This document shows, piece after piece, positions 7,151 through 57,743 of a stretch of DNA of 64,000 bases. The translations under genes and the position numbers were made by a program. The DNA lies in contig CAZEDL010000001.1 in assembly GCA_964510885.1 (NCBI GenBank), positions 312,982-376,981 of the forward strand. The letters run 5' to 3'. This stretch comes from an uncultured Gammaproteobacteria bacterium. Lineage in GTDB: Bacteria; Patescibacteriota; Patescibacteriia; Magasanikbacterales; GWA2-37-8. The first letter of the stretch is position 1. Every line of letters starts with the position of its first letter. Under the pieces are notes generated by a model. The model searched no databases. It worked only from the letters and a program-made list of their open reading frames with translations, and was not told the origin of the DNA.

Positions 7151-10100
7151 CTACCCTCCTTCCGGATTAGTGCTTGTATCATATTCTTGAGGAGGCTCAG
7201 ATGCAGGTGTAAAAACTTCTTCTGAAGAAGTCGAGAGTTCATCAACTGGTGGCGTGACAGAAGGTGTAGAAATAGTACTGGTCGTATCTGTTGGCAACAC
7301 TTCACCTGAAGGGGATTCAACTATCTCCGAAGGAATGACGGTGGCCCGACGAGCATTTTTAACAGCCAAAGCTATCCAGCTAAAGGTTAGCTCAAATGGA
7401 GCAGGCTTACTGAGGTGTAGAGTAAAACCACGGGTAGTCTTTTTAATTATGATATACCTAATATCTTCAGTAAAAATTATCTCTTCGAGAGCCGCAGCCT
7501 CATCAGCGCTGAGAGTGGAAGTAGTTTCGAGCGACAAAGTCGCATTTACTACCGGTTGCTCGAGATACTCATGCTGGAACTCTACAGCAACATTCTTTTG
7601 ACCGGGGGGTACAACCACAAATCCTCCGCTATCGGCGTTAAAATAGGGCCGGCCTATAAAAAGAATTTCGCTGCCGACACTAATAGCGCCGCTAATTGAA
7701 CTGAGCATATCGACTTGTAATCCAGCACGCAATATACCCGGCTGATCAATAGACAGGCTGCTACTTGCCAAGTTAGCCAGGGTAAGATTTGATTGATTTT
7801 CAAGCGTCGTCATACGATTAAACAGGTAGTCGGTGGTTGAGGCAACCGCGCTAAGGGCCATGGTAGATGACGCTAATTGGATGCCTAAATCAGCAGTGGT
7901 TGAGGCTAACGCATCTACGGTCGAAGACACATAAGAGAGGCCTGGGGTAACAATCTCGTTGGCAACCAACCGAGAAGCAGCAATTGTCCCAGACACGGTC
8001 AAGGTACTCGCAATTCTCACTTGATCAGCAAAAAAGGCGCTGCCCTCAAAGGTAGTAGTAGCTAAAAAATCTATATCTCCAATGACACTCACCATGCCGT
8101 TTAATACCGTCGGTCCGTTAACCGTGAGACCACCAATTACTAGTGAGCTTGAAGGACTGATTGTGAACGAAGAGGAGCTCGCGACAGTGGAAGTGGTGAG
8201 AATTTCGGTACCACCTAACTCTGATTCGGTATCAAAAAAAGATAAAGCGCTTGAAGTGACAGACGTACTACTCGGAGATCCCGGCAGGGCTAGTCCTCGA
8301 ATAATCAGAATAGTGATACGAGCAGAAGAAGTAGCGAGTGGCTCGAGTGCCATACCAATAATACTTGCTGTTTTTCCACTCTCCAGGTCATAACGCATAG
8401 CATAGCCTGCTCTAGAGGCAGTAACTACATAGTCACCGGTACTAATTGGGCCATTTTCATCAGTAACTTTGGTATTAACGAGGCCAGACAACGCGAGCGC
8501 ACCGCGATTTTCACCACTGACACCAATTAAGAAACGGCCCGTATCAGAGATAACACCAGCTACATTAACTGCATAGGCACTGGTAGATTTTTTAAATTTA
8601 TTAGGATTCTCCGGATCAGAAATGAGCACGTCACCGGGCTCGCTCGTGTCACCCGGCGACAGATCTACATATTCGGCCAAATCACCAATCGTGCTGCCCG
8701 CGGCATTGGAGGTAATAGTTCCGGTGGAGCGAACATTTCCACCGGTGTCTACTGAAAGAACTTTGGAACCGGCGTTGCGCAAAGAAAATAAAATAGAGCT
8801 ACTTGCCGTGCTCAACGCACTATTGGTATCAAAAATAAATGCCCCGGCACCAGACCCGGACGCAAAGGAAGTAATAGTGGTGGAAGAATTCGACGCGGTA
8901 ATTTTAAGGCCACCAGCGCCAGATCCACCAGTTATAGCTAGCGTACCTGAGGCATTAATGGTGCCTACTACGGTGAGAGCCGAACCGAGAGTAGTAGTGC
9001 CAATTACCGACAGGCCACCTTCGGAACTAATACCTCCAACCCCAGCAAATAGACCACCTCGTAAAAAAAGACTGTTATCAAAAAAAGCATTTTGTAGTAC
9101 TTGTAAACCTCCGATTTCGGCAGTATGGGAAATCAAACCACCTGTTTCAATTCCGCCCACATCATAATATTGAAACTCACATCCGTGTGCTGAATTCTCA
9201 GAGAGAGCCCGGCAACTATCGACTGAACCCCCAACCCCAATAAAGAATCGACGGCCGGCCACGTACAGAGCGTTTACCGTCGTTCCCGAAACCCCTGATC
9301 CGGAATCTACACCCCCGACAAAAGTTAGCGCACTCGTCGAAACATCATAGACTTGAATTTCGCAATTTGCTGGAGTTGAAATCGAACAACTGGCGCCATT
9401 GCTAGCATTCTTCCCCACATACAAATAGCGCCCAGCAGACATGACTGCTTTAGTCGCGTCGGTTAAATCAAGACCATTTTTATAAGTGGGATTTGTCGGA
9501 TTAATCACGTCAAATAGTTGTAGTTCGCAGCCAGTACGGGTGGAAGATGAACAAGTACCAGTATTGGCATTATTAACCAGAAACACGTTCATTCCATTGA
9601 CCGTAATACCATTAGCCGTATTATCACCATTATCAACTCCTCCAATATATATTAGTGCCGTGGTGGAGGCGGTGATATCATAAATTTGTAGCTCACAACC
9701 AGTATTATCAGTAGAACTGCAGGTTCCAGAATTAGATGCTTTACCAATATAGGCCCGACGCCCCGATAGAGCAACTGCATCAAAATTGCTTCCACCGGCA
9801 TCATTGGCGCCGCCCATAAACCGAGGCGTAGAACTGGGGCCGGACAAATCATATAATTGAATTTCACATCCTGCTGGGTTAGCGAAAGTACAAGTGGCAG
9901 CACTTACCGCTTTGGCAATTACTACTCTGCCGCCTTCCATAGCCAGTCCTTTAATTTGAGTAGTGGCATCAATACCGCCGCTATAAACCGGGCTCAGAGG
10001 ATTAAACATATTATACATTTGCAGCTCGCAACCAGTAGCCGTAGTAGCTGAACAAAAACCACTTGCCGCATTAGTTCCGAATACTAAATAATCGCCAAAA

Positions 10101-12772: not shown

Positions 12773-14141
12773 ACCCCAATATGTGCCCGTCTTTATCTTT
12801 AAGCGAGGTAATGTGATCAGTTATCGCGATTTTTTTTCCTTCTTTGGTTACTAAGACACGATAACTCACTGATTTTTTGGAGCGAATTTTATTCAGAGAT
12901 CTATTTTTAATAAAAGAAAGTGTGAGCAGACTCTCATATTTTTTACCGATTACTTCCGCTTCGGTAAATCCGGATACATTACTGGCGGCAGTATTGAAAC
13001 GAATAATGTTGGCTTGGTTATTAACGACTATAACACCATCCCCAATGCTCGAGAGAATGGCTTCATCCAAATCTTTCACTTCACTAATAGCGTGATACGA
13101 TTTGGTCAAAGCCTTAGCCATGGTATTAAACGAAGCACTCAGTTCACCTAACTCATCACGCGATGTCACCGGCACATGAACCTGCAGTTTGCCTTCGGAA
13201 AAGGCTTGTGTTGCAGCACGCAAGCTCTGAACTGGCCGAATAATACTCTGATAAAGCCAATAAGCGATTACCAATTCACTGATTACGATAAAAAAACTCA
13301 AAATAAATAAAGAAGCTAGGGCGTCATCAAAAGAATACGTGGTTTTGTCTAAGACTGTTTGTTCAAGAGCCGTAAGTAGCGTGGTAATAGCAGTTTCTTT
13401 TTCAATCAAACCATGCTCGCCACCAAGCGTGTTGGTAGCAGTAAGACCGAGATCGTATTCAATTTTAGCCACCCTACTAAAAAGGCCCTGATAACGCTCT
13501 AGGGCTTTCAAACTGTCCCCGTTATTTTTAAATCCCTGGCGTAAAATGGCTATGTGTCGATCAAATTCAGTTTGATCTAACGCGTGGTGTCGCAGACGGA
13601 AGAATTGCTCACGCTGCCGTGCTTGACGTAACGTGGCAGCGAGGTTAGCAGGGGTTGCCGCTTGTAAAGTGTTAAAAGCGCGATCAAGCTCGCCTTCAAG
13701 GCCAAAATCCCTAAAGCCGAGTTCACGATAGTCGCTAACGACTTGATAAAAGAGTACTCGATAGTCGCTCAGCAAGTCTGGTAACGCAGTTGAATTGTGA
13801 CCGCGCAGATCTAGTTTTTGGAGTTGTCCATTCAAGAGACTTAATCGACGAGAGAAATCTTGATACCCGCGCTCCCAATTATCAACATAGCGACTTTTTC
13901 CTTCGTTAAAAAAAAGAATATTTTTTTCATCTGTAACTCCCTGAGTGAAAAAAGCCTGCTCTTCGAGCCGCATTTGCAAAATTAAACTGCGTAATTCTTG
14001 GATGGTTCCGCGCGCAGCAACTTGATTGACTTTAATATCACGCAGTGTCAAAAAAACAAAGCTGGAAAAAATTAATAAAATTAGTATCGGCAGCCCAAAT
14101 GCCAGCAGTAATTTGGAACGCAGGCTAAAGGTTGAAAGCAT
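12747..14141 (-). CDS. Membrane signal-transduction sensor: CHASE3-like extracytoplasmic domain, TM, HAMP, PAS. No kinase domain visible.
   Basis: N-terminal TM, then an LRDIKVNQVAARGTIQEL helical sensor region. Second TM LFILSFFIVISELVIAYWLY. HAMP-like RPVQSLRAATQAFSEGKL...SRDELGELSASFNTMAKAL. C-terminal PAS (ILSSIGDGVIVVNNQANIIRFNTAASNVSGFTEAEVIGKKYESLL). Confidence 0.55.
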   Translation of the reverse strand: MLSTFSLRSKLLLAFGLPILILLIFSSFVFLTLRDIKVNQVAARGTIQELRSLILQMRLEEQAFFTQGVTDEKNILFFNEGKSRYVDNWERGYQDFSRRLSLLNGQLQKLDLRGHNSTALPDLLSDYRVLFYQVVSDYRELGFRDFGLEGELDRAFNTLQAATPANLAATLRQARQREQFFRLRHHALDQTEFDRHIAILRQGFKNNGDSLKALERYQGLFSRVAKIEYDLGLTATNTLGGEHGLIEKETAITTLLTALEQTVLDKTTYSFDDALASLFILSFFIVISELVIAYWLYQSIIRPVQSLRAATQAFSEGKLQVHVPVTSRDELGELSASFNTMAKALTKSYHAISEVKDLDEAILSSIGDGVIVVNNQANIIRFNTAASNVSGFTEAEVIGKKYESLLTLSFIKNRSLNKIRSKKSVSYRVLVTKEGKKIAITDHITSLKDKDGHILGCVVVFRAC

Positions 14142-18050: not shown

Positions 18051-20612
18051 GTGGAATCCATTGTGTTATTTATCAACACGGTCGTTGCTGTCATACTGAG
18101 CAATCAGACCATCTTTTATGCCACCCTGGCCGGGCTTGGTTTTTTTGTGTTTGTGGCAGCGCTCTTTATTTTGCGAGCGGTGCTGCATGGGCGCAGTAAA
18201 ACCAGCCGGGCCTTCCACAAAACAATTCTACTGATCCGCGTGCCGAAAGAAAAAAAGAACGAGCGGCATGACAATGGTGGCGGAAATGAAGATACTATCA
18301 ACCAAACCCGCGAACATATTGCAGTGGCTGAAACACTCTTTTCGTCGATTGCCGGGCTTAAGCCAGACCATGGATTTATCAAATGGCTCACCGGGCGGAA
18401 CGAGCACATAGCCTTTGAAATCGTGGCCAAAGACAGCAAGATCTCATTCTATGTAGCGGCGCCAGACAAAATGCGCAATCTTTTGGAGCAACAAGTTCAT
18501 GCCCAGTATCCGCATGCCGAGATTTCGGTCGAGACCGATTATAATATTTTTCATCCGAGCAGCCATATTGTGGGCGGATATTTATGGTTCAAGCACAAAT
18601 CCCCCTTCCCCTTTAAAACCTATAAAAAAATGGACAGTGACCCGTTGGTTGCGATTTTGAACCCACTCAGCAAGATCCTTGATGACGAAGGAGCAGTGGT
18701 GCAATTTATTGTGCGGCCGGCTGGTTCGCATTGGCGGCGCGAAGGCGTGCACATGATTCGCGATATTCGCCAGGGCCAAAAATTTGAATATGTGGCGCAA
18801 CGCGGTAGCTTTATGCGCAGCGTGCATAAATGGGGAAAAATTATTGCGCCGAAGCATCATGACCCATCTAAGCAAAGCAATCATGGCGAAAAGTATGTAC
18901 TGACGCAGATGGAAGAAGAAATGGTAAAAAGCATGGAAGAAAAGCTGAGCCACGGCGGGCTTGAGATCACGATCCGGCTGATTAGTTCAGCGGGGAGCAA
19001 AGAAAAAGCACAGCTGAACCTCGAGAATATTATCAACTCGTTCAGCCAATATAATATTTATCGCTACGGCAATTCATTTGGGGCCGCTATCCCCCGCCGG
19101 CAGACGGAGCTGATCCGCGATTCAATCTATCGCTGTTTTCGCGAAGGTTACCACATGGTGATGAATACCGAAGAAATGGCCGGCCTGTGGCATTTGCCGA
19201 TTCCCCATACGGAGACACCCCATATTAATTGGCTCGGAGCCCGCAAAGCACCACCGCCGGTGAATATGCCGAAAGATGGCATTGTGCTCGGGCGAGCAGT
19301 GTACCGCGGCGAAGAGACAATTGTGAAAATGAAACGTTCCGACCGGCGCCGTCATTTGTACGTGGTCGGTAAATCGGGTGGTGGTAAATCGGTATTTATT
19401 GAAAATCTGGCCGTGCAGGATGTGCAGAATGGCGAAGGCGTGTGTGTAATCGATCCACACGGTGATTTTGTGGAATATGTATTACAACATATCCCCAAAG
19501 AACGCGCCGACGACGTGATTTACTTTAATCCGGCCGATACGGAGCGGCCAATTGGGTTGAATATTTTGGAGGTGAAGACCGAAGAGCAAAAAGACTTTGC
19601 TACCCAGGAAATGATTGCGATCTTCTATAAAATGGTGACTGACCCATCGATGATCGGGCCGATGTTTGAACACCAGATGCGCAATGTGATGTTAACCCTC
19701 ATGAGCGACCTTGAAACGCCGGGCACGATCGCCGAGGTGCCGCGCATGTTTACCGATGATACGTTTGTGGCCAAATGGAAAAAGAAATTGAAAGATCCGG
19801 TGGTGCGCGCTTTTTGGGATAAAGAAATGGCCAAGACATCTGATTTCCATAAATCGGAAATGCTCGGATATTTGATCTCTAAAGTGGGTCGCTTTGTAGA
19901 AAACGAAATGATCCGCAATATTATTGGACAATCGCGATCGGGCTTTAATTTCCGCGAAGTGATGGACGGCAAAAAGATTTTGCTCGTTAACCTCGCTAAG
20001 GGTTTGGTGGGTGAAATCAATGCCAACTTGCTTGGTATGATTATTGTAAGCAAGCTCCAAATGGCGGCGCTCGAACGCGCGGCCTTGCCCGAAGAAGAAC
20101 GGCATGACTTTTTCCTGTATATCGATGAGTTTCAGAACTTTATTACCGATTCGATCGCCACGATTTTGTCGGAAGCACGCAAGTATCGCCTGGAACTTAT
20201 TATTGCGCATCAATACTTAAATCAATTGGTGGATAATAAAGGCAAGAACACCGTGCGTGATGCCGTGCTTGGTAATGCCGGTACGATCGTGACGTTCCGT
20301 ATTGGCACGGAAGATGCGGATATTTTGGCCAAAGAATTTGCGCCGGTGTTTGGGGCGTATGATCTGATTAATGTGGAGCAGTTTACTGCCTATATCAAAT
20401 TATTGATCGACAATACAGCTGCCAAACCATTTAACATGCTGACGTATCCACCGAAGCATGGGAACAAAGAATTAGCGGCGGCGATCAAAGAATTATCACG
20501 CCTTAAATATGGCCGGCCGCGCGAAATTGTGACGGCGGAAATTCTGGAACGGTCGGCTTTGGCCTCGGTGGCGAAACTGGATGATATGGATTTGAGTGAG
20601 GCGACGTTGTAA
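18051..20612 (+). CDS. Membrane-anchored TraD/VirD4/TrwB-like P-loop ATPase (DUF87-type) with a ~420-aa N-terminal domain of unknown function
   Basis: N-terminal TM pair. Walker A YVVGKSGGGKSVF, Walker B-like FFLYIDEFQNF. A C-terminal helical region typical of type IV coupling or HerA-like ATPases. Confidence 0.5.
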   Translation: MESIVLFINTVVAVILSNQTIFYATLAGLGFFVFVAALFILRAVLHGRSKTSRAFHKTILLIRVPKEKKNERHDNGGGNEDTINQTREHIAVAETLFSSIAGLKPDHGFIKWLTGRNEHIAFEIVAKDSKISFYVAAPDKMRNLLEQQVHAQYPHAEISVETDYNIFHPSSHIVGGYLWFKHKSPFPFKTYKKMDSDPLVAILNPLSKILDDEGAVVQFIVRPAGSHWRREGVHMIRDIRQGQKFEYVAQRGSFMRSVHKWGKIIAPKHHDPSKQSNHGEKYVLTQMEEEMVKSMEEKLSHGGLEITIRLISSAGSKEKAQLNLENIINSFSQYNIYRYGNSFGAAIPRRQTELIRDSIYRCFREGYHMVMNTEEMAGLWHLPIPHTETPHINWLGARKAPPPVNMPKDGIVLGRAVYRGEETIVKMKRSDRRRHLYVVGKSGGGKSVFIENLAVQDVQNGEGVCVIDPHGDFVEYVLQHIPKERADDVIYFNPADTERPIGLNILEVKTEEQKDFATQEMIAIFYKMVTDPSMIGPMFEHQMRNVMLTLMSDLETPGTIAEVPRMFTDDTFVAKWKKKLKDPVVRAFWDKEMAKTSDFHKSEMLGYLISKVGRFVENEMIRNIIGQSRSGFNFREVMDGKKILLVNLAKGLVGEINANLLGMIIVSKLQMAALERAALPEEERHDFFLYIDEFQNFITDSIATILSEARKYRLELIIAHQYLNQLVDNKGKNTVRDAVLGNAGTIVTFRIGTEDADILAKEFAPVFGAYDLINVEQFTAYIKLLIDNTAAKPFNMLTYPPKHGNKELAAAIKELSRLKYGRPREIVTAEILERSALASVAKLDDMDLSEATL

Positions 20613-50572: not shown

Positions 50573-52042
50573 TCAGCCATAGGGCAGATCGGCCGGTGGT
50601 TCGTCGGCAGGAGCAACCGCTGGTGGCGGAGAGGATGGCACCGATGGCAACTTTCGTTTGAGCGGGCCTTCGCTGTGCTCCACAGGGAGTTCGGTCGGCG
50701 GCTCGGCACGTTTGGCACCAGCCTTCTGCAGAAGCGGTGTCTTGACGAACGGTAGTGGGAAGTGCCAAATGGTTGCTAATTCTTCGATATTTAAAATATA
50801 CGGATTCCCGAGAGCCTTTAATTTACGGCCTTTAAAGGCATGGATAAAATGATGCTTGTGATGGGCCAACCGGCGTTCTTTAAAGAGATAGTACGCCTCG
50901 GTCGTATGGTGCGGCAAAATGGCATTACTACTCATGACATGGAACTGGTTCATGGCACCCACCAAGCCATCGATTGACGGGCCGGGATTAAATACTTCGC
51001 GGCGGGCCGCATACAAGATGCGGATTTTTGATTTAAAGCCGATTTTAGAAATTTTTTGTTCAATGGCTTCTACGGTAGCTTTAAATCCGGGCGATAGATC
51101 GCTTAATTTACCAGCATGCTCTTCTTCGTGTCCACCATGATCATCCTCGCCTTCACCGCCAACCAAATTTGCTAAAATAAATTTTAATATCTCAAACGGC
51201 AGGTGCAAAATTTTAATCAGCCATTCAGACACGAACCCACCTCCGCCATGCCCTCCGTGTCCGCCATGTCCACCGGCGTGGCCACCGCCGGCGATGATCT
51301 CTTTCACCAGATCTATCCCCTTTTCTTTCCAAGCATTACCGGTCGGCTCAATGATGATCTGCATCCAGACATTTTCACCATGGCCAACGCGGCTGAAATT
51401 TTCGAGAATAGCGGCCATCGGGTCGCTAAACACTGCATCTTTACTCAGGTTATATTCAAAACTCGGATAGGTGCGGATCGGAAATGCGTCCGGCTCGTGG
51501 AGCGCAAACTCTACTGCAAACATGTCATAATCCGGATGCGGGTAATGATCAGGAATATTATCTACATAGTCTTCGACTTCGGTGATTTCCGCTTCGGTGT
51601 ACTGCGCATAGACAGCTGCTTCCACCAAATCACGGAATTCAGCTTCAGTGCGAATCAAAAATTGAATATAGCCCTCGATGCTGATAATCTCGAAACTGAA
51701 GGATTTTTGTTTTTTACCGAGCCAGTATTTTTGACCAATATTAGGGCTTACTTTGGCGCCGCTCAAATGCGCAAAAATTTGCTCCACGGCTTTTGGGGTT
51801 TGGATAAACATAGCGGGCACATCCACTGCGAGCAATACCCAGCGCCATTTTTTCTTATATTTTTTTCCCCGATATTCCCGCCATAATTCTGAACCCATGT
51901 AAAAAAATACCAAGGCCATGGCTGTCCAGCCAACAATGGAAAAAATTATGGTCACAAGCTCGGCCGGCGGCAATGACAAAATATCCTGCCAGACAGACAG
52001 ATCGAGACTGAAACCGAGCGGAGTGTCGATGATCCAGGGCAT
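50573..52042 (-). CDS. Hypothetical membrane protein, a paralog of the N-terminal ~420-aa domain of the TraD-like ATPase at 18051-20612 but without the ATPase. It has a His/Gly-rich insert and a Pro-rich C-terminal tail.
   Basis: Colinear similarity seen by eye: YAQYTEAEITEVEDY vs HAQYPHAEISVETDY; SDPMAAILENFSRV vs SDPLVAILNPLSKI; ATIWHFPLPFVKTP vs AGLWHLPIPHTETP. Also GGHAGGHGGHGGHGGGGF and APADEPPADLPYG. Confidence 0.5.
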   Translation of the reverse strand: MPWIIDTPLGFSLDLSVWQDILSLPPAELVTIIFSIVGWTAMALVFFYMGSELWREYRGKKYKKKWRWVLLAVDVPAMFIQTPKAVEQIFAHLSGAKVSPNIGQKYWLGKKQKSFSFEIISIEGYIQFLIRTEAEFRDLVEAAVYAQYTEAEITEVEDYVDNIPDHYPHPDYDMFAVEFALHEPDAFPIRTYPSFEYNLSKDAVFSDPMAAILENFSRVGHGENVWMQIIIEPTGNAWKEKGIDLVKEIIAGGGHAGGHGGHGGHGGGGFVSEWLIKILHLPFEILKFILANLVGGEGEDDHGGHEEEHAGKLSDLSPGFKATVEAIEQKISKIGFKSKIRILYAARREVFNPGPSIDGLVGAMNQFHVMSSNAILPHHTTEAYYLFKERRLAHHKHHFIHAFKGRKLKALGNPYILNIEELATIWHFPLPFVKTPLLQKAGAKRAEPPTELPVEHSEGPLKRKLPSVPSSPPPAVAPADEPPADLPYG

Positions 52043-52366: not shown

Positions 52367-53272
52367 TTATTTTTTTCCCCACCGCTCGGCCATTACTACC
52401 AAGGGGCTAGCAATAAAGATTGATGAATAGGCGCCGCTCGCCATACCAATCAGAAGCGCCAGGGCAAAATTATGGATGGTCGAGCCGCCGAGGAAATAGA
52501 GGGCAAATAGCGGCAAAAGTACAGTGAAAGTGGTGTTGAGTGAACGCATCAGAGTTTCATTCAAACCGTTATTCACAATCTCTGGGAAGTTGTCTGCACT
52601 ATGGCGAGTCAGATTTTCGCGGATACGGTCGTATACTACGATCGTATCGTTGACCGAATATCCAAGTACGGTCAAAATGGCCACAATAAACGCGATGTCA
52701 ATTTCTACCCCTTTAAAATGGCCAAGGGCTGCAAAGATACCAAGCACAAGCAGCACATCATGCACCAGCGCCACAATGGCAAAGACGCCGTATTTCCAGC
52801 TAGCAACGGGGCGCGATACCTTGCGGAAGGCATAGGCCAAATAGAGGATAATGCTGACATTAACGAGAATAATAGCCCACAGCGAACGTTCCCGGAGTTG
52901 TTTACTCACGGCTGCACCAATGGTCTGAAAACTGTCTTCTTTTACAGCCACCTCTTTGGTCTGGAATTGATCGCGAATGGCTTTAAGCACCGTTTGATGC
53001 TCTTCTTCGCTGAGGAAACTGGTGCGGACAATAAGCCCAGCATCACCCGTTTTTTGAATGATACGTTCTTTGAGCCCTAATTTATCGAAGACTTGTTCTA
53101 CGGCGGTGACTTCGGGGCGATTTTTACTAAATGATACTTCGAGCAAGGATCCACCGGTAAAATCGATGCCTGGCTTGAGACCCCAGACAATAATGGCGGC
53201 GAGTGAAGCTACCATGGTAAGGGCAGCAATACTCAACCAAACTTTGCTATAACGAATAAAAGGAATCTTCAT
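52367..53272 (-). CDS. secF: Protein translocase subunit SecF
   Basis: Six-TM RND-like topology, conserved IDFTGG and LIVRT... motifs, directly downstream of secD. Confidence 0.85.
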   Translation of the reverse strand: MKIPFIRYSKVWLSIAALTMVASLAAIIVWGLKPGIDFTGGSLLEVSFSKNRPEVTAVEQVFDKLGLKERIIQKTGDAGLIVRTSFLSEEEHQTVLKAIRDQFQTKEVAVKEDSFQTIGAAVSKQLRERSLWAIILVNVSIILYLAYAFRKVSRPVASWKYGVFAIVALVHDVLLVLGIFAALGHFKGVEIDIAFIVAILTVLGYSVNDTIVVYDRIRENLTRHSADNFPEIVNNGLNETLMRSLNTTFTVLLPLFALYFLGGSTIHNFALALLIGMASGAYSSIFIASPLVVMAERWGKK

Positions 53273-53273
53273 A

Positions 53274-55325
53274 TTATTGTTTCCGGTAGCCTAAGAATAA
53301 GGAATTTCCGCGTTGACCGACGTGGACAAATACCAACCGCATAATGGTGCGGGTGACACTAATAGCAGTGAACAAGTTAATCAACGTACCGACGGCTAAA
53401 ATCACGGCAAAACCCTGAATAAAGCCGCTACCAAACCAGACTAAGAATACGCAGCTAATAAGGGCGGTAATATGACTATCTCGAATCGAGGGCCAAGAAC
53501 GGGCAAATGATTCTTCGGTGCTGGAGTTTAGTAGTTTTCCCGCTTGGAGCTCTTCTTTAAGACGTTCAAATACTAGGATATTAGCATCGACAGCCATACC
53601 AATCGAGAGGATAAACCCGGCAATACCGGCCAGGGTCATTGTGACACCGATCAGCTTGAAGACAGCTAAACTGAGAATAGCATAGAAAGCCAAAGAGAAG
53701 ACCGAGAGCAGGCCCGGCAAACGGTAGTAGATAACCATGAATAACATGACCAGCAGAAGCCCGTAGATACCAGCGCGGAAACTTTTTTGGAGCGAATCAA
53801 CACCAAGAGTCGCATCAACGGTTTGCTGACTGATCAATTCTACCGGCACTGGCAAGGCGCCTGAATTCAAGCGCTGTGCCAAGAGTTTGGCATCTTTCAG
53901 GCTAAAGCCACCGGAAATCACGGCGCTGCCGGTGTTGATCGCTTCGTTCACTATCGGGGCGCTGATTGGCTGGCCATCGAGGAAGACGGCGATCGGCTTG
54001 CCGACATTGCGGCCGGTGATCTCACTAAAGAGTTTGGCGCCTTCGTCGTTAAAATTCAGACTGACCTGGATTTGGCCGCTGCGCTGATCTTCGGTTACTT
54101 CGGCACGTTTCAATTGTTTGCCCGATAGACCGGTAGATTTCCACTGGTCAACCGGTGGGACAATATCAGTTTTGGTTTTGGTTTTAATGAAGAGATTGGC
54201 AATCTGAATCTGATCGGCCACCGCTTCATCAGTTTTATAAATCAAATGATAACCAAATTCAGTTTCAACTGGCTCGGAAATGGTGCCAACTTTCTGCGGC
54301 CAAACTACGGCTTCAAAGGCTTTCACCATTGCACCTTGTTTAAAGGTACCAAGGCTACCGCCGGTATTAGCCGCGCCTGGTTCGGTAGAATATTTTTTGA
54401 CTAGTTCTACAAAATTCTTTGGAGTGGCTTCTTTGCGGATTTCTTGAATCTTGGCGAGGGCTTGTTCTTTGGTATAGCTACTGCCTTCACAGCGAGTGGC
54501 GCCTTTGTAGCAGAGGAGCAAATGCGAAGCCGTCACGGTTTTTTCTCCGGCTTGCACGGCGAGGCGGCGCACGATATTCAAACCACTCACGGTTTTAATA
54601 GTAGTCGCGCTAACTTCACCATCTTTAAGGGTTTTGGCTGAGGCATAGAGCTCGGGGTAGACATCGGCGCTAATAAAACCGAGGTCGCCGGCTTTATCTT
54701 TGGTGGTGGTATCTTCGGAATACTTAGCTACAGCTTCAGAGTATGACATCCCTTTTTTAATCGCTTGGAGCGCGGTAGTGGCTTTTTGCTCAGCGGCTTT
54801 ATTGAAATCCGTCAGTTGTTTTTGTTCAGCGGCAGTCAGCTCGCGCGGGGCAGCGGTATTTTCTTCTTTAAATTCAAGGATCGGGGTTTCGCCAATACTC
54901 TTGATGGCTTCATTGACATCGGTGACGCCTGGCAACTCCACGATCACGCGATAGGCGCCGGCAACTTTCGTAGTTTGAACCAGTGGTTCGGCCACACCAA
55001 GGCCGCCACGGACGCGGCGTTCGATCACATCACGCACGCCTTCTACGGAATTAGCGCGGTCAGCTTCGGGAATATTGGTGGTGTTGGCTTCGTAGACGAG
55101 GTGAGCACCGCCTTGCAAATCAAGGCCGAGGTTGTAACCTTTTTCGGGAAAGCGGGGTAGGCCGAGATTGGTGGTTTGGTTAACTTTATCAATCGCCCGA
55201 TTGGCATAGTGCGGGGCAGCAATAATGCCGCAGAGCGCAAACAACAGGATGATTCCAGCCATGCGCCAGCGCAGCTGGGAGCGGGTAATTACTTTACGCG
55301 TGGGCAGTGGTTTTCGAATAGCCAT
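53274..55325 (-). CDS. secD: Protein translocase subunit SecD with a PpiC/parvulin-type peptidyl-prolyl isomerase domain embedded in the periplasmic head
   Basis: SecD TM1, P1 domain and C-terminal six-TM core (GLLSVFSLAFYAIL..., IGMAVDANIL). Inserted rotamase signature SHLLLCYKG...GGSLGTFKQGAMVKAFEAVVW...SEPVETEFGYHLIY. Confidence 0.8.
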   Translation of the reverse strand: MAIRKPLPTRKVITRSQLRWRMAGIILLFALCGIIAAPHYANRAIDKVNQTTNLGLPRFPEKGYNLGLDLQGGAHLVYEANTTNIPEADRANSVEGVRDVIERRVRGGLGVAEPLVQTTKVAGAYRVIVELPGVTDVNEAIKSIGETPILEFKEENTAAPRELTAAEQKQLTDFNKAAEQKATTALQAIKKGMSYSEAVAKYSEDTTTKDKAGDLGFISADVYPELYASAKTLKDGEVSATTIKTVSGLNIVRRLAVQAGEKTVTASHLLLCYKGATRCEGSSYTKEQALAKIQEIRKEATPKNFVELVKKYSTEPGAANTGGSLGTFKQGAMVKAFEAVVWPQKVGTISEPVETEFGYHLIYKTDEAVADQIQIANLFIKTKTKTDIVPPVDQWKSTGLSGKQLKRAEVTEDQRSGQIQVSLNFNDEGAKLFSEITGRNVGKPIAVFLDGQPISAPIVNEAINTGSAVISGGFSLKDAKLLAQRLNSGALPVPVELISQQTVDATLGVDSLQKSFRAGIYGLLLVMLFMVIYYRLPGLLSVFSLAFYAILSLAVFKLIGVTMTLAGIAGFILSIGMAVDANILVFERLKEELQAGKLLNSSTEESFARSWPSIRDSHITALISCVFLVWFGSGFIQGFAVILAVGTLINLFTAISVTRTIMRLVFVHVGQRGNSLFLGYRKQ

Positions 55326-55440
55326 AGCAGGAAATATCTAAAAAATATAAGGAAATTAAAGCTGCGGAGATGATAGCGAGTTTTGATTGGTTTGACAAGT
55401 GGACAAGGGGGAAATTTTTGTTGAATTTTGTTAACTACTA

Positions 55441-55469
55441 TTGACAAATTCTGTGATATATGCTAGTGT
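55441..55469 (+). promoter_or_regulatory. Promoter-like motif TTGACAAAT-N11-TGCTAG upstream of GC-rich islet 3 gene (shared with 55996-56024)
   Basis: ttgacaaattctgtgatatatgctagtgt, then SD GGAG and ATG at 55514. Confidence 0.4.
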
Positions 55470-55513
55470 CTGGCCTAACCAGGCGTTCAACGTAGCCTGG
55501 GGAGATCAAGTCA

Positions 55514-55813
55514 ATGAACAAGAATCAACAGAGGTGCATCTCTATCTCTTTTCCCGTCTCCTTTTCGTTGGCGGCGATGCTGGCAGCGGTGATTGGGATG
55601 GCGGCATTCTTCCTTCACTTCCGGCAGCAGCCGCAGTCGGGCCCACAGAACACCATTGAGTTCTGCAGCCCTGCCTACGCCTGTGTGGCTGGCTGCTCCG
55701 ATGCCGATCGCAAGGCAGGCAAGGACTGCTGCGACGCACCCACCCAGGATACCAAGGACAGCAAGGCGGGCAAGAAGGCGGCCAAGAAGGAAGCCGAGAA
55801 GAAGGGCGGCTAA
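55514..55813 (+). CDS. Small secreted Lys/Ala/Asp-rich low-complexity protein (GC-rich islet 3). It resembles the 15895-16095 product in composition.
   Basis: Signal/TM FPVSFSLAAMLAAVIGMAAFF. Cys cluster CSPAYACVAGCSDADRKAGKDCCDAP. Tail KDSKAGKKAAKKEAEKKGG. GC-rich codons. Confidence 0.4.
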   Translation: MNKNQQRCISISFPVSFSLAAMLAAVIGMAAFFLHFRQQPQSGPQNTIEFCSPAYACVAGCSDADRKAGKDCCDAPTQDTKDSKAGKKAAKKEAEKKGG

Positions 55814-55995
55814 CTTCCCTACCCACCACCAGACACCCCACAACCCACTGAGACTCAGTGCGGCAAATAGAAGAATCCCCAACTGTCTTTATCTAGTAAT
55901 TATTTTAATAGGTAAAGACAGGGATTACTTCTAAAGTAAGTGAATAACTCTGCTATATAGCGGGGTTATTTTTTTATACATTTTGTAAATTAAAC

Positions 55996-56024
55996 TTGAC
56001 AAATTTTTAAATATGTGCTAGCTT
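55996..56024 (+). promoter_or_regulatory. Promoter-like motif TTGACAAAT-N11-TGCTAG upstream of GC-rich islet 4 lipoprotein gene, followed by the palindrome tagcttcatcacaagcta
   Basis: ttgacaaatttttaaatatgtgctagctt. Spacing and both boxes are identical to 55441-55469. Confidence 0.4.
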
Positions 56025-56067
56025 CATCACAAGCTAGGCCCTTCAATTTGCCTAGTGGAGGACAACC

Positions 56068-56655
56068 ATGAAGCTGCCCCTTCTCTACGCCATCACCACC
56101 CCCCTGATCCTCTTGGGTGCGTCGTGCGGAACGGTCACCACCAACCCCCTCGACCTGCGTCCAACCTACTACCAGTGGGTGTCGCGGTGCCAGCTGGAGG
56201 GTGGCGCGCCACCCCCGACGGGCCCCAAGGACGTCAACGATACGGCCACCATGGCCAAGGCCAAGTACACGGCTGTCTACGCCGTGACACACCTCCAGCC
56301 GCAGAACTGCGCCGAGGCGCTGGCTGACCCGAACGCCCTGCTCCTGTGCGCTGATGGCGCGCAGAACTATACCCTCAAGGAGGGAGGGGATCCCAACAAG
56401 GCAGCGGACTGGATCCCCAACCCCAATGCCCCCTACCGCATCTGCCAACCTGGGGTCATCAGCCCGGCCCTGCTGGGCGATGGGCTCCACGACTTCAGTG
56501 GAAGCGGCCCGACCTGGACCCAGAAAGGGGGCCAATCCCAGATCGTGGCCAGCAAGGTGCCCAGCCCAGTCGGCTACGCCGGGATCAATGGGCAGAACGC
56601 CGCCGAGGCGCTCCTGCAGATCAGCCGTATCACCGGCGTCTACGCCACCAAGTAG
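56068..56655 (+). CDS. Hypothetical lipoprotein (GC-rich islet 4)
   Basis: Signal plus lipobox LILLGASCG. Strong SD GGAGG. Strongly GC-biased codons compared with the flanking genes. Confidence 0.5.
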   Translation: MKLPLLYAITTPLILLGASCGTVTTNPLDLRPTYYQWVSRCQLEGGAPPPTGPKDVNDTATMAKAKYTAVYAVTHLQPQNCAEALADPNALLLCADGAQNYTLKEGGDPNKAADWIPNPNAPYRICQPGVISPALLGDGLHDFSGSGPTWTQKGGQSQIVASKVPSPVGYAGINGQNAAEALLQISRITGVYATK

Positions 56656-56776
56656 CGCCCCCAACCCCTGCCCCATCCCGATCCGCATCGGGACAGCGTG
56701 GCCCGAATCAATCCCCTGCCTTTCGTTCTCTAGTAGTTAGCTAGTAGCGAGCGAAAGGGGTTGACTTCGAGAGAAT

Positions 56777-56807
56777 TAAAAAATCCTGCTTCTAGGCAGG
56801 ATTTTTT
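56777..56807. terminator. Bidirectional rho-independent terminator between the convergent lipoprotein and hypothetical genes
   Basis: aaaaaatcctgc-ttctag-gcaggatttttt: a perfect 8-bp stem flanked by an A-run and a T-run. Confidence 0.7.
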
Positions 56808-56809
56808 AA

Positions 56810-57727
56810 TTAACCTCTCTGATTTTGTAGTTGTAATGCTGCTTGTAACTCGGTAACGCCAGCTCTTGCCAAAGTATCAGGATCGTTCATAAATCCGGCG
56901 ACCAGATAACCATCTGGGCTGCCTGATTGACTTAGCACGTTCACTGTAACAGGAATTCTGTCTTCTTTTTTTCTTGTTCCCCACAGTCTGCCTGGAACTT
57001 CATTAGAACGAACAACAACGAATGGTATCTCGGCAATTACGTATGATGTTGGTACCGTGCCGACAAAGGCTTCGGCGCTTTTTTTACGAGCCTTATTATA
57101 TGCAGATACACAGTTAGATAGAGCGGTGATAAATTGTGCCAGTTCCCGTGGTTTTTCATTTTCATTAAATTCACCTTGCTTTCTAAAATTAGCGATCACC
57201 AGGTCTAAATTTTCTTTGGCTCGGCTGATTTCATTGGCTCTTTCAGCTTCTTGAGCTATATCCTGTTTAGTTTTTTGAACAATCGCTTCTTGGCGTAATA
57301 TTTCCTCGACTGCCAGGCGCAGCCCTCCGGCTTCAGGAAAATTATTGAGCGGCACACCCCCTGATTCCCGGCCGCCAGCCATATATTTGAGCCAGTGCCT
57401 AACAGTTACTGTATCAAACGAGCGCCCTTTAGCGTCTGTCATCTTGTCAGGCCATGATGCGACGATTTCAATAAATTTAGAGAAACTGGCCTCGCCCCTA
57501 TTAGCCAGCTCTAAAAAGCTGCTGTTATCTAAAAAAGCTTGGGCTTTCGCAGTCGGATCTGGTTCACGGTCTCCTGCCACATCGACTACGGGATGGGCGC
57601 CGGCATGTCGCGGATTTATCTCCGCGCGACGCTGTGCGTTGCTAGGCGGCTTCACATCCTGAGATCTAACCAGTATATCGAACCGAGGATCGCCCTCACC
57701 AAATCTAGGCTTGTCTCCTTGTGACAT
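56810..57727 (-). CDS. Hypothetical protein (305 aa, soluble, helical)
   Basis: ORF only, upstream of secA on the same strand. Confidence 0.4.
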   Translation of the reverse strand: MSQGDKPRFGEGDPRFDILVRSQDVKPPSNAQRRAEINPRHAGAHPVVDVAGDREPDPTAKAQAFLDNSSFLELANRGEASFSKFIEIVASWPDKMTDAKGRSFDTVTVRHWLKYMAGGRESGGVPLNNFPEAGGLRLAVEEILRQEAIVQKTKQDIAQEAERANEISRAKENLDLVIANFRKQGEFNENEKPRELAQFITALSNCVSAYNKARKKSAEAFVGTVPTSYVIAEIPFVVVRSNEVPGRLWGTRKKEDRIPVTVNVLSQSGSPDGYLVAGFMNDPDTLARAGVTELQAALQLQNQRG

Positions 57728-57743
57728 AAATAGCTAATTTAGA

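What the first reader, a model, noticed from the sequence alone, without database searches (positions are those of the whole stretch)
53274..55325. SecD carries an embedded parvulin (PpiC-type) prolyl-isomerase domain in its periplasmic head
Between TM1 and the C-terminal six-TM core there is a complete rotamase signature (SHLLLCYKG…GGSLGTFKQGAMVKAFEAVVW…SEPVETEFGYHLIY). A foldase built into the Sec translocon motor would fold or release emerging secretory proteins directly. This is consistent with a cell that secretes giant repeat proteins such as the 1,870-aa neighbour and has few standalone chaperones.
Basis: partly seen in the sequence, partly recalled or inferred. Interest (0 to 1): 0.6.

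Follow-up and report, generated by a model that had tools for sequence, protein, structure and literature searches.

The report
SecD with built-in nested parvulin foldase
The protein-export motor subunit SecD of this candidate-phyla-radiation bacterium carries two nested prolyl-isomerase (parvulin) domains on its outer-face domain, a conserved but apparently undescribed arrangement that joins a folding helper directly to the secretion machine.

Summary
ORF 53274..55325(-) is a genuine SecD (TIGR01129 356 bits, cutoff 244). A 227-residue insert (residues 157-383) sits between Pfam SecD_1st and SecDF_P1_head and matches PPIC-type rotamase (E 6e-32).

An outer parvulin is circularly permuted (helix α1 to strand β4, with β1 supplied after the inner domain) and has lost its catalytic histidines. 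An inner canonical parvulin (263-366) keeps both histidines, the acidic residue and the proline-pocket residues in 29-36 of 36 species.

Among 80 species-representative genomes chosen for SecD similarity:
- 35 have the double insert (Magasanik-, Uhr-, Falkow-, Peribacteria).
- 16 have a single insert; 14 keep both histidines as an intact permuted parvulin.
- About 27 have none (Saccharibacteria, Microgenomates, Paceibacterota, Chloroflexi).

Peregrinibacteria have a larger variant. All named carriers are Patescibacteria, annotated only as "SecD". I found no paper describing the fusion.

The most likely function is a membrane-tethered PrsA/SurA-like foldase or holdase acting on chains pulled out by the P1 head. 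This is inferred, not shown. The links to the 1,873-aa ORF and to "few chaperones" are unsupported.

The parts
53274..55325 (-). secD ORF, 683 aa, carrying the insert
   Evidence: ORF list. TIGR01129 secD scores 356.5 bits against a cutoff of 244.4. 3aqp SecDF aligns at E 5e-76.
55218..55283 (-). TM1 (residues about 15-36)
   Evidence: Helix 15-36 in the AlphaFold2 model; hydrophobic sequence RWRMAGIILLFALCGIIAAP.
54858..55043 (-). SecD_1st (first part of the P1 domain), residues 95-156; ends with strand PILEFKE, which leads into the insert
   Evidence: Pfam PF21760, E 1.4e-13. Aligns to TtSecDF 31-123. Strand 150-155 in the model.
54177..54857 (-). Whole insert, residues 157-383: nested double parvulin module
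   Evidence: Absent from TtSecDF and from 27 insert-free Patescibacteria/Chloroflexi SecDs. The insert-only model has pLDDT 93.4 and pTM 0.71. Best structural match is SurA 1m5y over about 200-220 columns.
54555..54845 (-). Outer parvulin-like domain, helix α1 to strand β4 (residues about 161-257). It has no β1 at its N-terminus, and the catalytic His is replaced (GLNIV).
   Evidence: Aligns to the parvulin model only from about position 21. Retains YSEDTTTKDKAGDLGF but has N in place of the β4 His. Secondary-structure order α-α-α-β-α-β-β.
54228..54539 (-). Inner canonical parvulin (PpiC-type PPIase) domain, residues 263-366. Key residues: H268, E315, L325, M333, F337, F357-G358-Y359-H360; Cys pair C272/C279.
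   Evidence: Pfam Rotamase/Rotamase_3 at E about 6e-32. Residue conservation across 36 species. Mapping to Pin1 H59/L122/M130/F134/H157. TM-score 0.75-0.83 to the PrsA, SurA-P2 and Pin1 PPIase domains.
54183..54215 (-). Strand after the inner domain (residues about 371-381, QIQIANLFIKT). Proposed permuted β1' that completes the outer parvulin.
   Evidence: One continuous 24-residue strand 358-381 lies antiparallel-length-matched to strand 248-271 in both models. It is positionally equivalent to the His-bearing '...RASHILIKT' tail of single-insert SecDs. The sequence-level re-permutation test on the query's own degenerate domain was inconclusive.
53847..54137 (-). P1 head subdomain, residues 397-493
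   Evidence: Pfam PF22599, E 4.4e-28, profile positions 18-114. Aligns to the TtSecDF head region.
53322..53801 (-). TM2-TM6 core, residues about 509-668, including invariant D580 in GMAVDANILVFERLKEE
   Evidence: Pfam SecD_SecF_C. The alignment to TtSecDF pairs this motif with GAAVDGNVLSFERIKEE. D580 and N582 are invariant in 53 homologs.
52367..53272 (-). secF, 301 aa, partner subunit immediately downstream
   Evidence: TIGR00966 scores 294 bits against a cutoff of 160. A SecF follows SecD, or is fused to it, in essentially all related loci.

Best explanation
This is a functional SecD whose extracytoplasmic P1 domain has acquired a foldase module at the junction between its first part and the mobile head.

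The module has two nested parvulin domains:
- The outer one is a circularly permuted parvulin. It runs from helix α1 to strand β4, and its β1 strand arrives only after the inner domain. In this lineage it has lost its catalytic histidines and probably serves as a rigid scaffold or peptide-binding surface.
- The inner one is a canonical PpiC-type parvulin with an intact catalytic and proline-binding pocket. It is probably an active prolyl cis/trans isomerase.

Proposed mechanism: SecDF uses the proton gradient to swing the P1 head, which grips the unfolded chain emerging from SecYEG. The attached parvulin pair then meets the chain immediately. It holds the chain, isomerises its prolyl bonds and so promotes folding and release on the outer face of the membrane. 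In a cell that, by established knowledge of these bacteria, has no outer membrane to retain soluble chaperones, fusion to SecD replaces the lipid anchor of PrsA or the TM anchor of PpiD.

Shown: the domain identities, the insertion site, the nested arrangement, residue conservation and the lineage distribution. Inferred: enzymatic activity, the clients, and coupling to head movement.
For: Domain identities:
- SecD and rotamase domains are both identified at high significance.
- The insertion is delimited by alignment to TtSecDF.
- The insert-only model is confident (pLDDT 93.4, pTM 0.71) and has two 24-residue strands that each span both domains.
- Foldseek gives SurA as the best two-domain match, and PrsA (TM 0.83), SurA-P2 (0.83) and Pin1 (0.75-0.79) for the single domain.

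Inner-domain residues across 36 species:
- H268 34/36 (the other two are alignment gaps), H360 36/36, F357 and G358 36/36, F337 36/36.
- L325 34/36, M333 29/36, acidic residue at 315 in 35/36.
- These map to Pin1 H59, H157, F134, L122 and M130.
- The same residues are invariant in an alignment of members only 35-50% identical.

Permutation:
- Single-insert SecDs show FGYH, then a linker, then a '...[AS]xHILI..' motif.
- Moving that tail to the front extends the Pfam Rotamase match to profile positions 1-96 and adds 5-8 bits in 3 of 3 cases.

Selection and spread:
- The architecture occurs in 51 of 80 species-representative loci.
- It occurs in 90 of the top 150 cluster representatives at 50% identity, and in Peregrinibacteria.

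The motor looks intact: D580 is invariant and secF is adjacent.

Independent literature:
- AlphaFold models dock the two parvulin domains of SurA onto the SecDF P1 head, and SurA binds the holo-translocon (PMC9987972).
- A surface PPIase cross-links to SecD in Mycoplasma (bioRxiv 10.1101/2024.09.05.611430).
Against: - No activity data exist.
- Parvulin folds with no PPIase activity are known (SurA P1, PpiD), and from established knowledge the chaperone function of PrsA and SurA does not strictly need isomerase activity. Conservation of the pocket therefore supports peptide or proline binding more firmly than catalysis.
- The Cys/Asp position is Glu in 21 of 36 sequences. This is unusual, and its alignment to Pin1 C113 is ambiguous by one residue.
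- The full-length model has pTM 0.36, so the position of the module relative to the head cavity and the SecY exit is unknown.
- The β1' assignment for this particular protein rests on predicted secondary structure and positional homology. The re-permutation test on its degenerate outer domain was inconclusive.
- Many Patescibacteria do without the insert.
- I could not test whether insert-free genomes carry a standalone parvulin instead.
Confidence: 0.65

Rival explanations
1. The module is a non-catalytic holdase or extension of the substrate-gripping surface. The parvulin domains simply enlarge the peptide-binding area or the reach of the P1 head, improving the pulling or ratchet action of SecDF. 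Prolyl isomerisation would be irrelevant.
For: The outer domain has clearly lost its catalytic histidines yet is retained. One Magasanikbacteria relative (L033) keeps only the His-less outer domain. A few close Peregrinibacteria relatives of similar length have no detectable rotamase match (P0484, P0495, P0500). The same junction tolerates unrelated inserts (L059 acidic, L080 proteobacterial). From established knowledge, SurA P1 and the PpiD parvulin are inactive peptide binders.
Against: The inner domain, and 14 of 15 single-insert domains, keep both histidines, the acidic residue and FGYH across deep divergence. Pure binding would not obviously require this. When the second domain was acquired, only the outer one decayed, which suggests one catalytic site is under selection.
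Confidence: 0.2
2. The module is a dedicated maturation or regulatory device rather than a general foldase. It either serves a few specific clients (as PrsA does for penicillin-binding proteins) or acts on a proline switch within the Sec machinery itself to time the head cycle.
For: A secA...secD-secF-489-aa-ORF arrangement is conserved, and the 489-aa membrane protein has unknown function. The rigid two-domain arm (pTM 0.71) sits next to the strand that leads from the base into the head.
Against: The 489-aa neighbour occurs equally with and without the insert: 26/35 double, 9/18 single, 9/27 none. No conserved client gene is linked to the insert. Nothing in the data points to an internal proline switch.
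Confidence: 0.1
3. The feature is an artefact: a chimeric assembly or mis-called ORF joining a parvulin gene to secD, or ordinary P1 sequence with chance similarity to rotamase.
For: None found. The source is metagenome-derived.
Against: E-values are about 1e-32. The insert is in frame and flanked on both sides by SecD sequence. The same architecture appears in more than 100 independent assemblies from several sources, in 51 species-representative genomes and in a second lineage. The predicted fold is confident.
Confidence: 0.01

Closest known systems
SurA (E. coli periplasmic chaperone; PDB 1m5y)
   Same: It has two parvulin domains in one chain, the first inactive and the second active. It is the best two-domain sequence match (query 173-373 to SurA 170-369) and the best structural match. 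It acts on chains leaving the Sec translocon. Its parvulin domains are modelled to dock on the SecDF P1 head (PMC9987972).
   Different: SurA is soluble, and its parvulins are inserted in an N/C chaperone core; no SurA_N match is found here. Its two parvulins follow one another, whereas here one is nested inside a circularly permuted other. The high rmsd (about 10 Å) shows a different relative arrangement. SurA serves outer-membrane proteins, which these cells presumably lack.
PrsA (lipoprotein foldase of Firmicutes; PDB 4wo7, 2jzv, 6vj6)
   Same: It is a membrane-tethered extracytoplasmic parvulin foldase of single-membrane bacteria that acts on Sec-exported proteins. Its PPIase domain is the closest single-domain match (NCBIfam PrsA E 1.6e-25; TM 0.83).
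   Different: PrsA is a separate lipoprotein dimer with a single parvulin inserted in an N/C chaperone domain. Here there is no lipobox and no N/C domain in this protein. The anchor is SecD itself.
PpiD-YfgM at SecYEG (E. coli; PDB 8zht)
   Same: It is a TM-anchored parvulin-containing chaperone stationed at the translocon exit that promotes translocation (PMC9643414).
   Different: It is a separate protein that binds SecY rather than being part of SecD. Its parvulin is catalytically inactive, and structural similarity is weak (rank 50).
Mpn444 surface PPIase of Mycoplasma pneumoniae
   Same: It is an extracellular PPIase/chaperone of a wall-less, reduced-genome bacterium that cross-links to SecD and is proposed to fold chains leaving SecYEG (bioRxiv 10.1101/2024.09.05.611430).
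   Different: It is a non-covalent partner: a large trimeric lipoprotein of a different family from the parvulin insert described here.
Canonical SecDF (T. thermophilus 3aqp/5yhf; E. coli SecD)
   Same: It shares the same TM core, P1 first part, P1 head and adjacent or fused SecF. E. coli-type SecD also has extra sequence at the same junction (L080).
   Different: No solved or described SecD has a parvulin domain. The proteobacterial extra region is not a rotamase.

Membership tests
SecD (protein translocase subunit, TIGR01129; RND superfamily) | Whole-protein match to the SecD equivalog model above its curated cutoff | tested here: met
   TIGR01129 scores 356.5 bits against a cutoff of 244.4, spanning residues 66-662.
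SecD (protein translocase subunit, TIGR01129; RND superfamily) | Topology: TM1, a large outer-face P1 domain (first part plus head), then five TM helices | tested here: met
   Pfam SecD_1st, SecDF_P1_head and SecD_SecF_C occur in that order. Model helices lie at 15-36 and 509-668. Foldseek top hits are SecDF 5yhf and 3aqp.
SecD (protein translocase subunit, TIGR01129; RND superfamily) | Conserved charged residue of the proton path in the central TM helix (Asp in the GxxVDxNVLxFER motif; its essential role is from established knowledge) | tested here: met
   D580 aligns with the Asp of TtSecDF GAAVDGNVLSFER and is invariant in 53 homologs.
SecD (protein translocase subunit, TIGR01129; RND superfamily) | Partner SecF encoded adjacent or fused | tested here: met
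   secF at 52367..53272 scores 294 bits on TIGR00966. This is conserved in related loci.
SecD (protein translocase subunit, TIGR01129; RND superfamily) | Proton-gradient-driven stimulation of protein export | not testable with these tools
   Requires biochemistry or genetics.
Parvulin / PpiC-type PPIase (PF00639, PF13616): inner domain 263-366 | Profile match above the gathering score over the full domain | tested here: met
   Rotamase scores 110.6 bits (cutoff 21.7). Rotamase_3 scores 111.1 bits (cutoff 22.5) over profile positions 3-114 of 116.
Parvulin / PpiC-type PPIase (PF00639, PF13616): inner domain 263-366 | Parvulin fold (β-α-α-α-β-α-β-β) | tested here: met
   Secondary-structure order in a model of pLDDT 93. 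TM-score 0.75-0.83 and rmsd 2.4-3.2 Å to the PrsA, SurA-P2 and Pin1 PPIase domains.
Parvulin / PpiC-type PPIase (PF00639, PF13616): inner domain 263-366 | Two active-site histidines, the Cys/Asp-position residue, and the Leu/Met/Phe proline pocket | tested here: met
   H268, H360, L325, M333 and F337 map to Pin1 H59, H157, L122, M130 and F134 and are conserved in 29-36 of 36 species. The acidic residue (E or D) is present in 35 of 36, but its exact register against Pin1 C113 is ambiguous by one residue.
Parvulin / PpiC-type PPIase (PF00639, PF13616): inner domain 263-366 | Measured prolyl cis/trans isomerase activity | not testable with these tools
   Requires an enzyme assay.
Parvulin: outer domain (161-257 plus 371-381) | Canonical strand order with β1 first, and catalytic histidines | tested here: not met
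   It aligns to the parvulin model only from about position 21. The β4 His is replaced by N and the tail reads ANLFI rather than SHILI. It is parvulin-derived but permuted and degenerate. The re-permutation test on this protein was inconclusive and positive for intact single-insert relatives.
SurA / PrsA / PpiD-type chaperones | Parvulin(s) inserted in a SurA_N / PrsA N-C / PpiD chaperone domain | tested here: not met
   No SurA_N (PF09312, PF13624, PF13623) or other chaperone-domain match in this protein. The host domain is SecD P1.
SurA / PrsA / PpiD-type chaperones | Own export signal or anchor (signal peptide, lipobox, or a single N-terminal TM) as a separate polypeptide | tested here: not met
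   The module is internal to SecD, flanked by SecD_1st and the P1 head.
SurA / PrsA / PpiD-type chaperones | Inactive-plus-active parvulin pair acting on Sec-exported chains | tested here: inconclusive
   The residue pattern fits an inactive outer and an intact inner domain, and SurA aligns across both. Action on exported chains is untested.

The most novel reading that the evidence does not exclude
This is a natural covalent version of the proposed SecDF-parvulin chaperone partnership. A proton-driven export motor carries its own prolyl isomerase on a rigid arm beside the moving head, so that pulling and folding are mechanically coupled.

The arm is built from what would be the first recognised circularly permuted parvulin fold, which later accepted a second parvulin inside itself. 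The graded series would record how a translocon acquired and then upgraded a foldase, and would give independent evolutionary support for the contested SurA/PpiD-SecDF hand-over model. The series runs from no insert, to an intact permuted single domain, to a nested pair with a decayed outer domain, and includes a free TM + P1-head + parvulin protein.
Probability: 0.4. Interest if true: 0.75.

Novelty: new variant of a known kind. Interest (0 to 1): 0.62.

Why it matters
How unfolded proteins leaving SecYEG are handed to folding helpers is still debated. The SurA-SecDF, PpiD-SecY and PrsA links rest on weak or indirect interactions. A conserved gene fusion is classic evidence that two functions work together, and here the fused partners are exactly the ones modelled to dock in E. 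coli (parvulin domains and the SecDF P1 head).

The fusion provides a compact, single-chain system in which the geometry of hand-over could be solved structurally, and in which isomerase-dead point mutants could be tested.

It also shows how genome-reduced, single-membrane Patescibacteria may secure extracellular folding capacity without a separate anchored chaperone. Finally, it adds a permuted, nested variant to the parvulin fold family, which is useful for protein-engineering and fold-evolution studies.

Tried and rejected
- **Taxonomy from cluster names**: almost no names were returned. Replaced by the genome scan.
- **Hinge and head residue numbers of TtSecDF:** the 2011 structure paper is not held and the 2018 review gives no numbers. 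The insertion site is therefore described by Pfam boundaries and by alignment only.
- **Full-length model for placing the module:** pTM 0.36 makes the relative domain positions unreliable. Model coordinates are not exposed, so contacts and the C272-C279 distance could not be measured.
- **Re-permutation test on the query's own outer domain and other double forms:** no gain except where the tail keeps His (L010, L013). Inconclusive for this protein.
- **Pairwise identities of single, outer and inner domains**: the outer domain evolves fast (28% within its class), so ancestry cannot be settled this way. The link between single-insert and outer domains rests on the shared site and the shared permutation.
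- **Standalone parvulin genes** in the window or within ±6 kb of SecD in 80 loci: none found. Whole-genome complementarity could not be tested.
- **The standalone triple-parvulin lipoproteins** (P0186 and others) look like ordinary relatives from other bacteria and were not pursued.
- **PrsA-like flanks in the roughly 780-aa Peregrinibacteria class:** a few PrsA chains align beyond the parvulin, but this is not conclusive.
- **Literature searches** for the fusion and for permuted parvulins: nothing relevant found. The library covers open-access papers only, so absence is not proof.
- **MAG labels** such as 'uncultured Gammaproteobacteria', 'Binatia' and 'Lysobacteraceae' on fused loci were judged unreliable. 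Many of these contigs carry the same Patescibacteria-type gene order; L037 ('Lysobacteraceae') does not, and I did not check this label by label.
Full report
**Observation**

The ORF at 53274..55325 on the minus strand is real and encodes 683 aa. All three quoted motifs are present at residues 267-275, 322-342 and 350-363. Pfam places the domains in this order:
- SecD_1st at 95-156.
- Rotamase_3/Rotamase at 251-366 (E 5.7e-32 and 7.4e-32; 111 bits against cutoffs of about 22).
- SecDF_P1_head at 397-493.
- SecD_SecF_C at 495-663.

NCBIfam's SecD equivalog model scores 356.5 bits against a cutoff of 244.4. The next ORF downstream (52367..53272) is SecF. Thermus thermophilus SecDF (3aqp) aligns to query residues 62-160 and 384-662. 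Roughly residues 161-383 are therefore extra, sitting where the Thermus protein has about 20 residues.

**Anatomy: two domains, nested**

Pfam reported two rotamase stretches, and SurA (1m5y) aligns across residues 173-373 through both of its parvulin domains.

A model of the insert alone (residues 146-396) is confident, with pLDDT 93.4 and pTM 0.71. Its secondary structure reads:
- Long helix α1 (165-190), two short helices, β (214-218), α (224-230), β.
- A 24-residue strand (248-271).
- A complete canonical parvulin.
- A second 24-residue strand (358-381).

Each long strand spans both domains. The first is β4 of the outer domain running on into β1 of the inner domain. The second is β4 of the inner domain running on into a strand that returns to the outer domain.

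The outer domain matches the parvulin profile only from about position 21, so it lacks an N-terminal β1.

The explanation came from relatives with a single insert. There the domain also starts at α1, but FGYH (β4) is followed by a short linker and a textbook β1 motif carrying the first catalytic histidine. Examples are FGYHIIKKTGERQGTAGTEVRASHILIKT and FGYHIIKKEAERKNDKGEDEIQARHILILT. This is a circular permutation.

I tested it by moving the tail to the front. In 3 of 3 cases the Pfam Rotamase match then covers profile positions 1-96 instead of starting at position 7-12. The score rises by 5-8 bits for both rotamase profiles.

In the window's protein the equivalent tail is QIQIANLFIKT (371-381). 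Related double-insert proteins show a graded series:
- KASHIFIKN
- SVRHIFIKT
- QLAHILITT
- QVSRILART
- QIANLFIKT

For the window's own degenerate outer domain the re-permutation test gave no gain. Its β1' assignment therefore rests on the predicted strands and on positional homology.

**Which domain is likely active**

Across 36 double-insert species representatives, the inner domain keeps:
- H268 in 34 of 36 (the other two are alignment gaps).
- H360, F357, G358 and F337 in 36 of 36.
- L325 in 34 of 36 and M333 in 29 of 36.
- An acidic residue at 315 in 35 of 36 (E in 21, D in 14).

BLASTP against human Pin1 maps H268, L325, M333, F337 and H360 onto H59, L122, M130, F134 and H157. E315 falls at or next to C113, because a one-residue loop indel makes the register ambiguous. 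The same residues are invariant in an alignment of members only 35-50% identical.

The outer domain keeps the S-x-D...GGDLGF segment. However, it has N, S, E or D where the β4 histidine should be, and R or N in most tails.

Single-insert domains keep the Asp in 15 of 15 and FGYH in 14 of 15. The same 14 carry the His-bearing tail.

The simplest history is as follows. A permuted but intact parvulin entered SecD first. A canonical parvulin later landed in its β4-β1' linker. The outer domain then decayed.

A cysteine pair (C272, C279) flanking the β1-α1 loop is invariant among close relatives and present in 27 of 36 species. A disulfide is plausible but untested.

**Distribution**

- All 120 best database homologs combine the SecD and rotamase Pfam domains. 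The named ones are Magasanikbacteria or 'Patescibacteria group', annotated only as SecD.
- A search of cluster representatives at 50% identity with the P1-plus-insert region found 197 representatives at E ≤ 1e-30. Of the top 150, 90 combine SecD parts with a parvulin. These include fused SecDF forms of 1,015-1,075 aa and larger-insert forms of 775-938 aa.
- In 80 GTDB species-representative loci, the spacing between SecD_1st and the P1 head falls into three classes:
  - 212-239 aa in 35 loci: Magasanik-, Uhr-, Falkow-, Peribacteria and 'Parcubacteria group'.
  - 111-146 aa with a parvulin in 16 loci: Komeili-, Buchanan-, Kerfeld- and Moranbacteria.
  - 4-51 aa in about 27 loci: Saccharibacteria, Daviesbacteria, Beckwithbacteria, Microgenomates, Paceibacterota, Portnoy-, Nealson- and Niyogibacteria, and Chloroflexi.
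- The roughly 780-aa class belongs to Peregrinibacteria.
- Several fused loci carry labels such as 'uncultured Gammaproteobacteria'. Many of these share the Patescibacteria gene order, so I regard the labels as unreliable.
- From my own knowledge of GTDB, most carriers fall in class ABY1 plus Gracilibacteria. I did not test this.

**Context**

The order secA, (variable genes), secD, secF, 489-aa unknown ORF is conserved. The 489-aa ORF follows secF in 26 of 35 double, 9 of 18 single and 9 of 27 insert-free loci, so it is independent of the insert. The SecD insert is the only parvulin in the 64-kb window, and no related locus has one within ±6 kb.

**Mechanism**

From the literature, the SecDF P1 head has an amphiphilic cavity that cross-links to precursor. 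It swings between membrane-facing and upright states, and this is proposed to pull chains out of SecYEG using the proton gradient (PMC5974789).

The insert leaves the chain directly after the strand PILEFKE, which ends SecD_1st, and returns just before the first head strand. The rigid parvulin pair therefore projects from the base/head junction.

My best explanation (confidence 0.65) is a built-in PrsA/SurA-like foldase or holdase. It would receive the chain held by the head, bind it and isomerise prolyl bonds, favouring folding and release at the outer face of the membrane.

The steps have different standing:
- Shown: the architecture, the conservation and the distribution.
- Inferred: activity, clients and coupling.

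The main rival (0.2) is a purely non-catalytic binding extension. It is supported by the retained dead outer domain and by L033, which keeps only that domain. A client-specific or regulatory role (0.1) has no positive evidence. An artefact is excluded.

**Comparison with known systems**

- **SurA.** Closest by sequence and fold over two domains, but soluble, built on a different chaperone core and with sequential rather than nested parvulins.
- **PrsA.** The closest functional analogue and the best single-domain match, but a separate lipoprotein.
- **PpiD-YfgM.** Sits at SecY with an inactive parvulin (PMC9643414).
- **SurA on the holo-translocon.** Troman et al. showed that SurA binds the holo-translocon. 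Their AlphaFold models dock both SurA parvulin domains on the SecDF P1 head (PMC9987972).
- **Mycoplasma.** A surface PPIase cross-links to SecD.

The present protein is the covalent counterpart of those proposed contacts. It is a member of the SecD family and contains a parvulin-family domain. It is not a member of the SurA, PrsA or PpiD families, because no chaperone core or own anchor is present.

**Novelty and limits**

The sequences and their Pfam hits are already public, so the architecture is visible to anyone who looks. Five literature searches found no description of a SecD-parvulin fusion or of a circularly permuted parvulin. The library holds open-access papers only.

I class this as a new variant of known kinds, with moderate to high interest (0.62).

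Limits:
- No enzymology.
- No reliable placement of the module relative to the head cavity (pTM 0.36).
- No whole-genome test of whether the fusion replaces a standalone parvulin.

Noticed in passing
window 50573-52042 (-): A 489-aa ORF with N-terminal hydrophobic segments and a Gly/His-rich run (GGHAGGHGGHGGHGGGG) has no Pfam match. It lies directly downstream of secF on the same strand here and in 44 of 80 related loci, whether or not SecD has the insert. It is a conserved, uncharacterised neighbour of the Sec genes in Patescibacteria.
   Followed up: partly
P0152, P0181, P0193, P0197, P0245, P0275; loci L081-L084 (gene at L081:3947-4807): A rare family of proteins of about 280-297 aa has an N-terminal TM anchor, a SecDF P1-head-like domain, then a complete parvulin with the same SHLL[IV]CY..C / EPG / FGYHLIYK signature as the SecD inner domain. 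The head-plus-parvulin pairing therefore also exists free of the motor. Its neighbours are an HTH regulator, Zn-ribbon/TPR proteins, a Trypsin_2 protease and DUF3800, not Sec genes.
   Followed up: partly
window 55326-57743: The roughly 2.4 kb between secA and secD holds ORFs found in none of the 80 related loci: a 305-aa ORF at 56810-57727(-), overlapping ORFs at 55990-56688, and a Cys-rich 99-aa ORF at 55514-55813(+). GC is raised here (0.49-0.53 against about 0.45). In some relatives secA and secD are adjacent. This is possibly a lineage-specific insertion.
   Followed up: partly
L059:3506-5146 and L080:5257-7767: The same SecD_1st / P1-head junction carries unrelated inserts in other organisms: a 113-aa acidic low-complexity stretch in L059, and a 169-aa non-parvulin region in a Pararhodobacter SecDF. 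The junction seems to be a permissive site for insertions.
   Followed up: no
P0148, P0158, P0159, P0185 and relatives (Peregrinibacteria): SecDs of about 775-830 aa have about 165 residues before and about 55 after a canonical parvulin. The parvulin carries Cys at the Pin1-C113 position (SDCPS). Some PrsA chains align beyond the parvulin, hinting at a PrsA-like N/C chaperone frame inserted into SecD. Close relatives P0484, P0495 and P0500 (about 667 aa) have no detectable rotamase match.
   Followed up: partly
L033:5824-7581 (Magasanikbacteria): This single-insert SecD has a domain of the His-less outer type (GLNV; tail VARILVKTK). It looks like a double-insert form that secondarily lost the inner, catalytically intact parvulin.
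   Followed up: no
window 7151-12772 (-): A 1,873-aa ORF has no Pfam match. It is flanked by a HAMP/PAS sensor-like ORF (12747-14141) and an ORF with weak Big_6 and dockerin hits (5170-6543). It is not linked to secD.
   Followed up: partly
window 18051-20612 (+): An 853-aa ORF matches type IV secretion coupling proteins (TrwB/VirD4/TraG-like), which suggests conjugation or DNA-uptake machinery in this small genome.
   Followed up: no
P0186, P0190, P0203 and about 15 similar cluster representatives: Standalone lipoproteins of 360-430 aa consist of three complete, apparently intact parvulin domains in tandem. They were recovered as relatives of the inner domain. Their taxonomy is unknown and is probably not Patescibacteria.
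   Followed up: no
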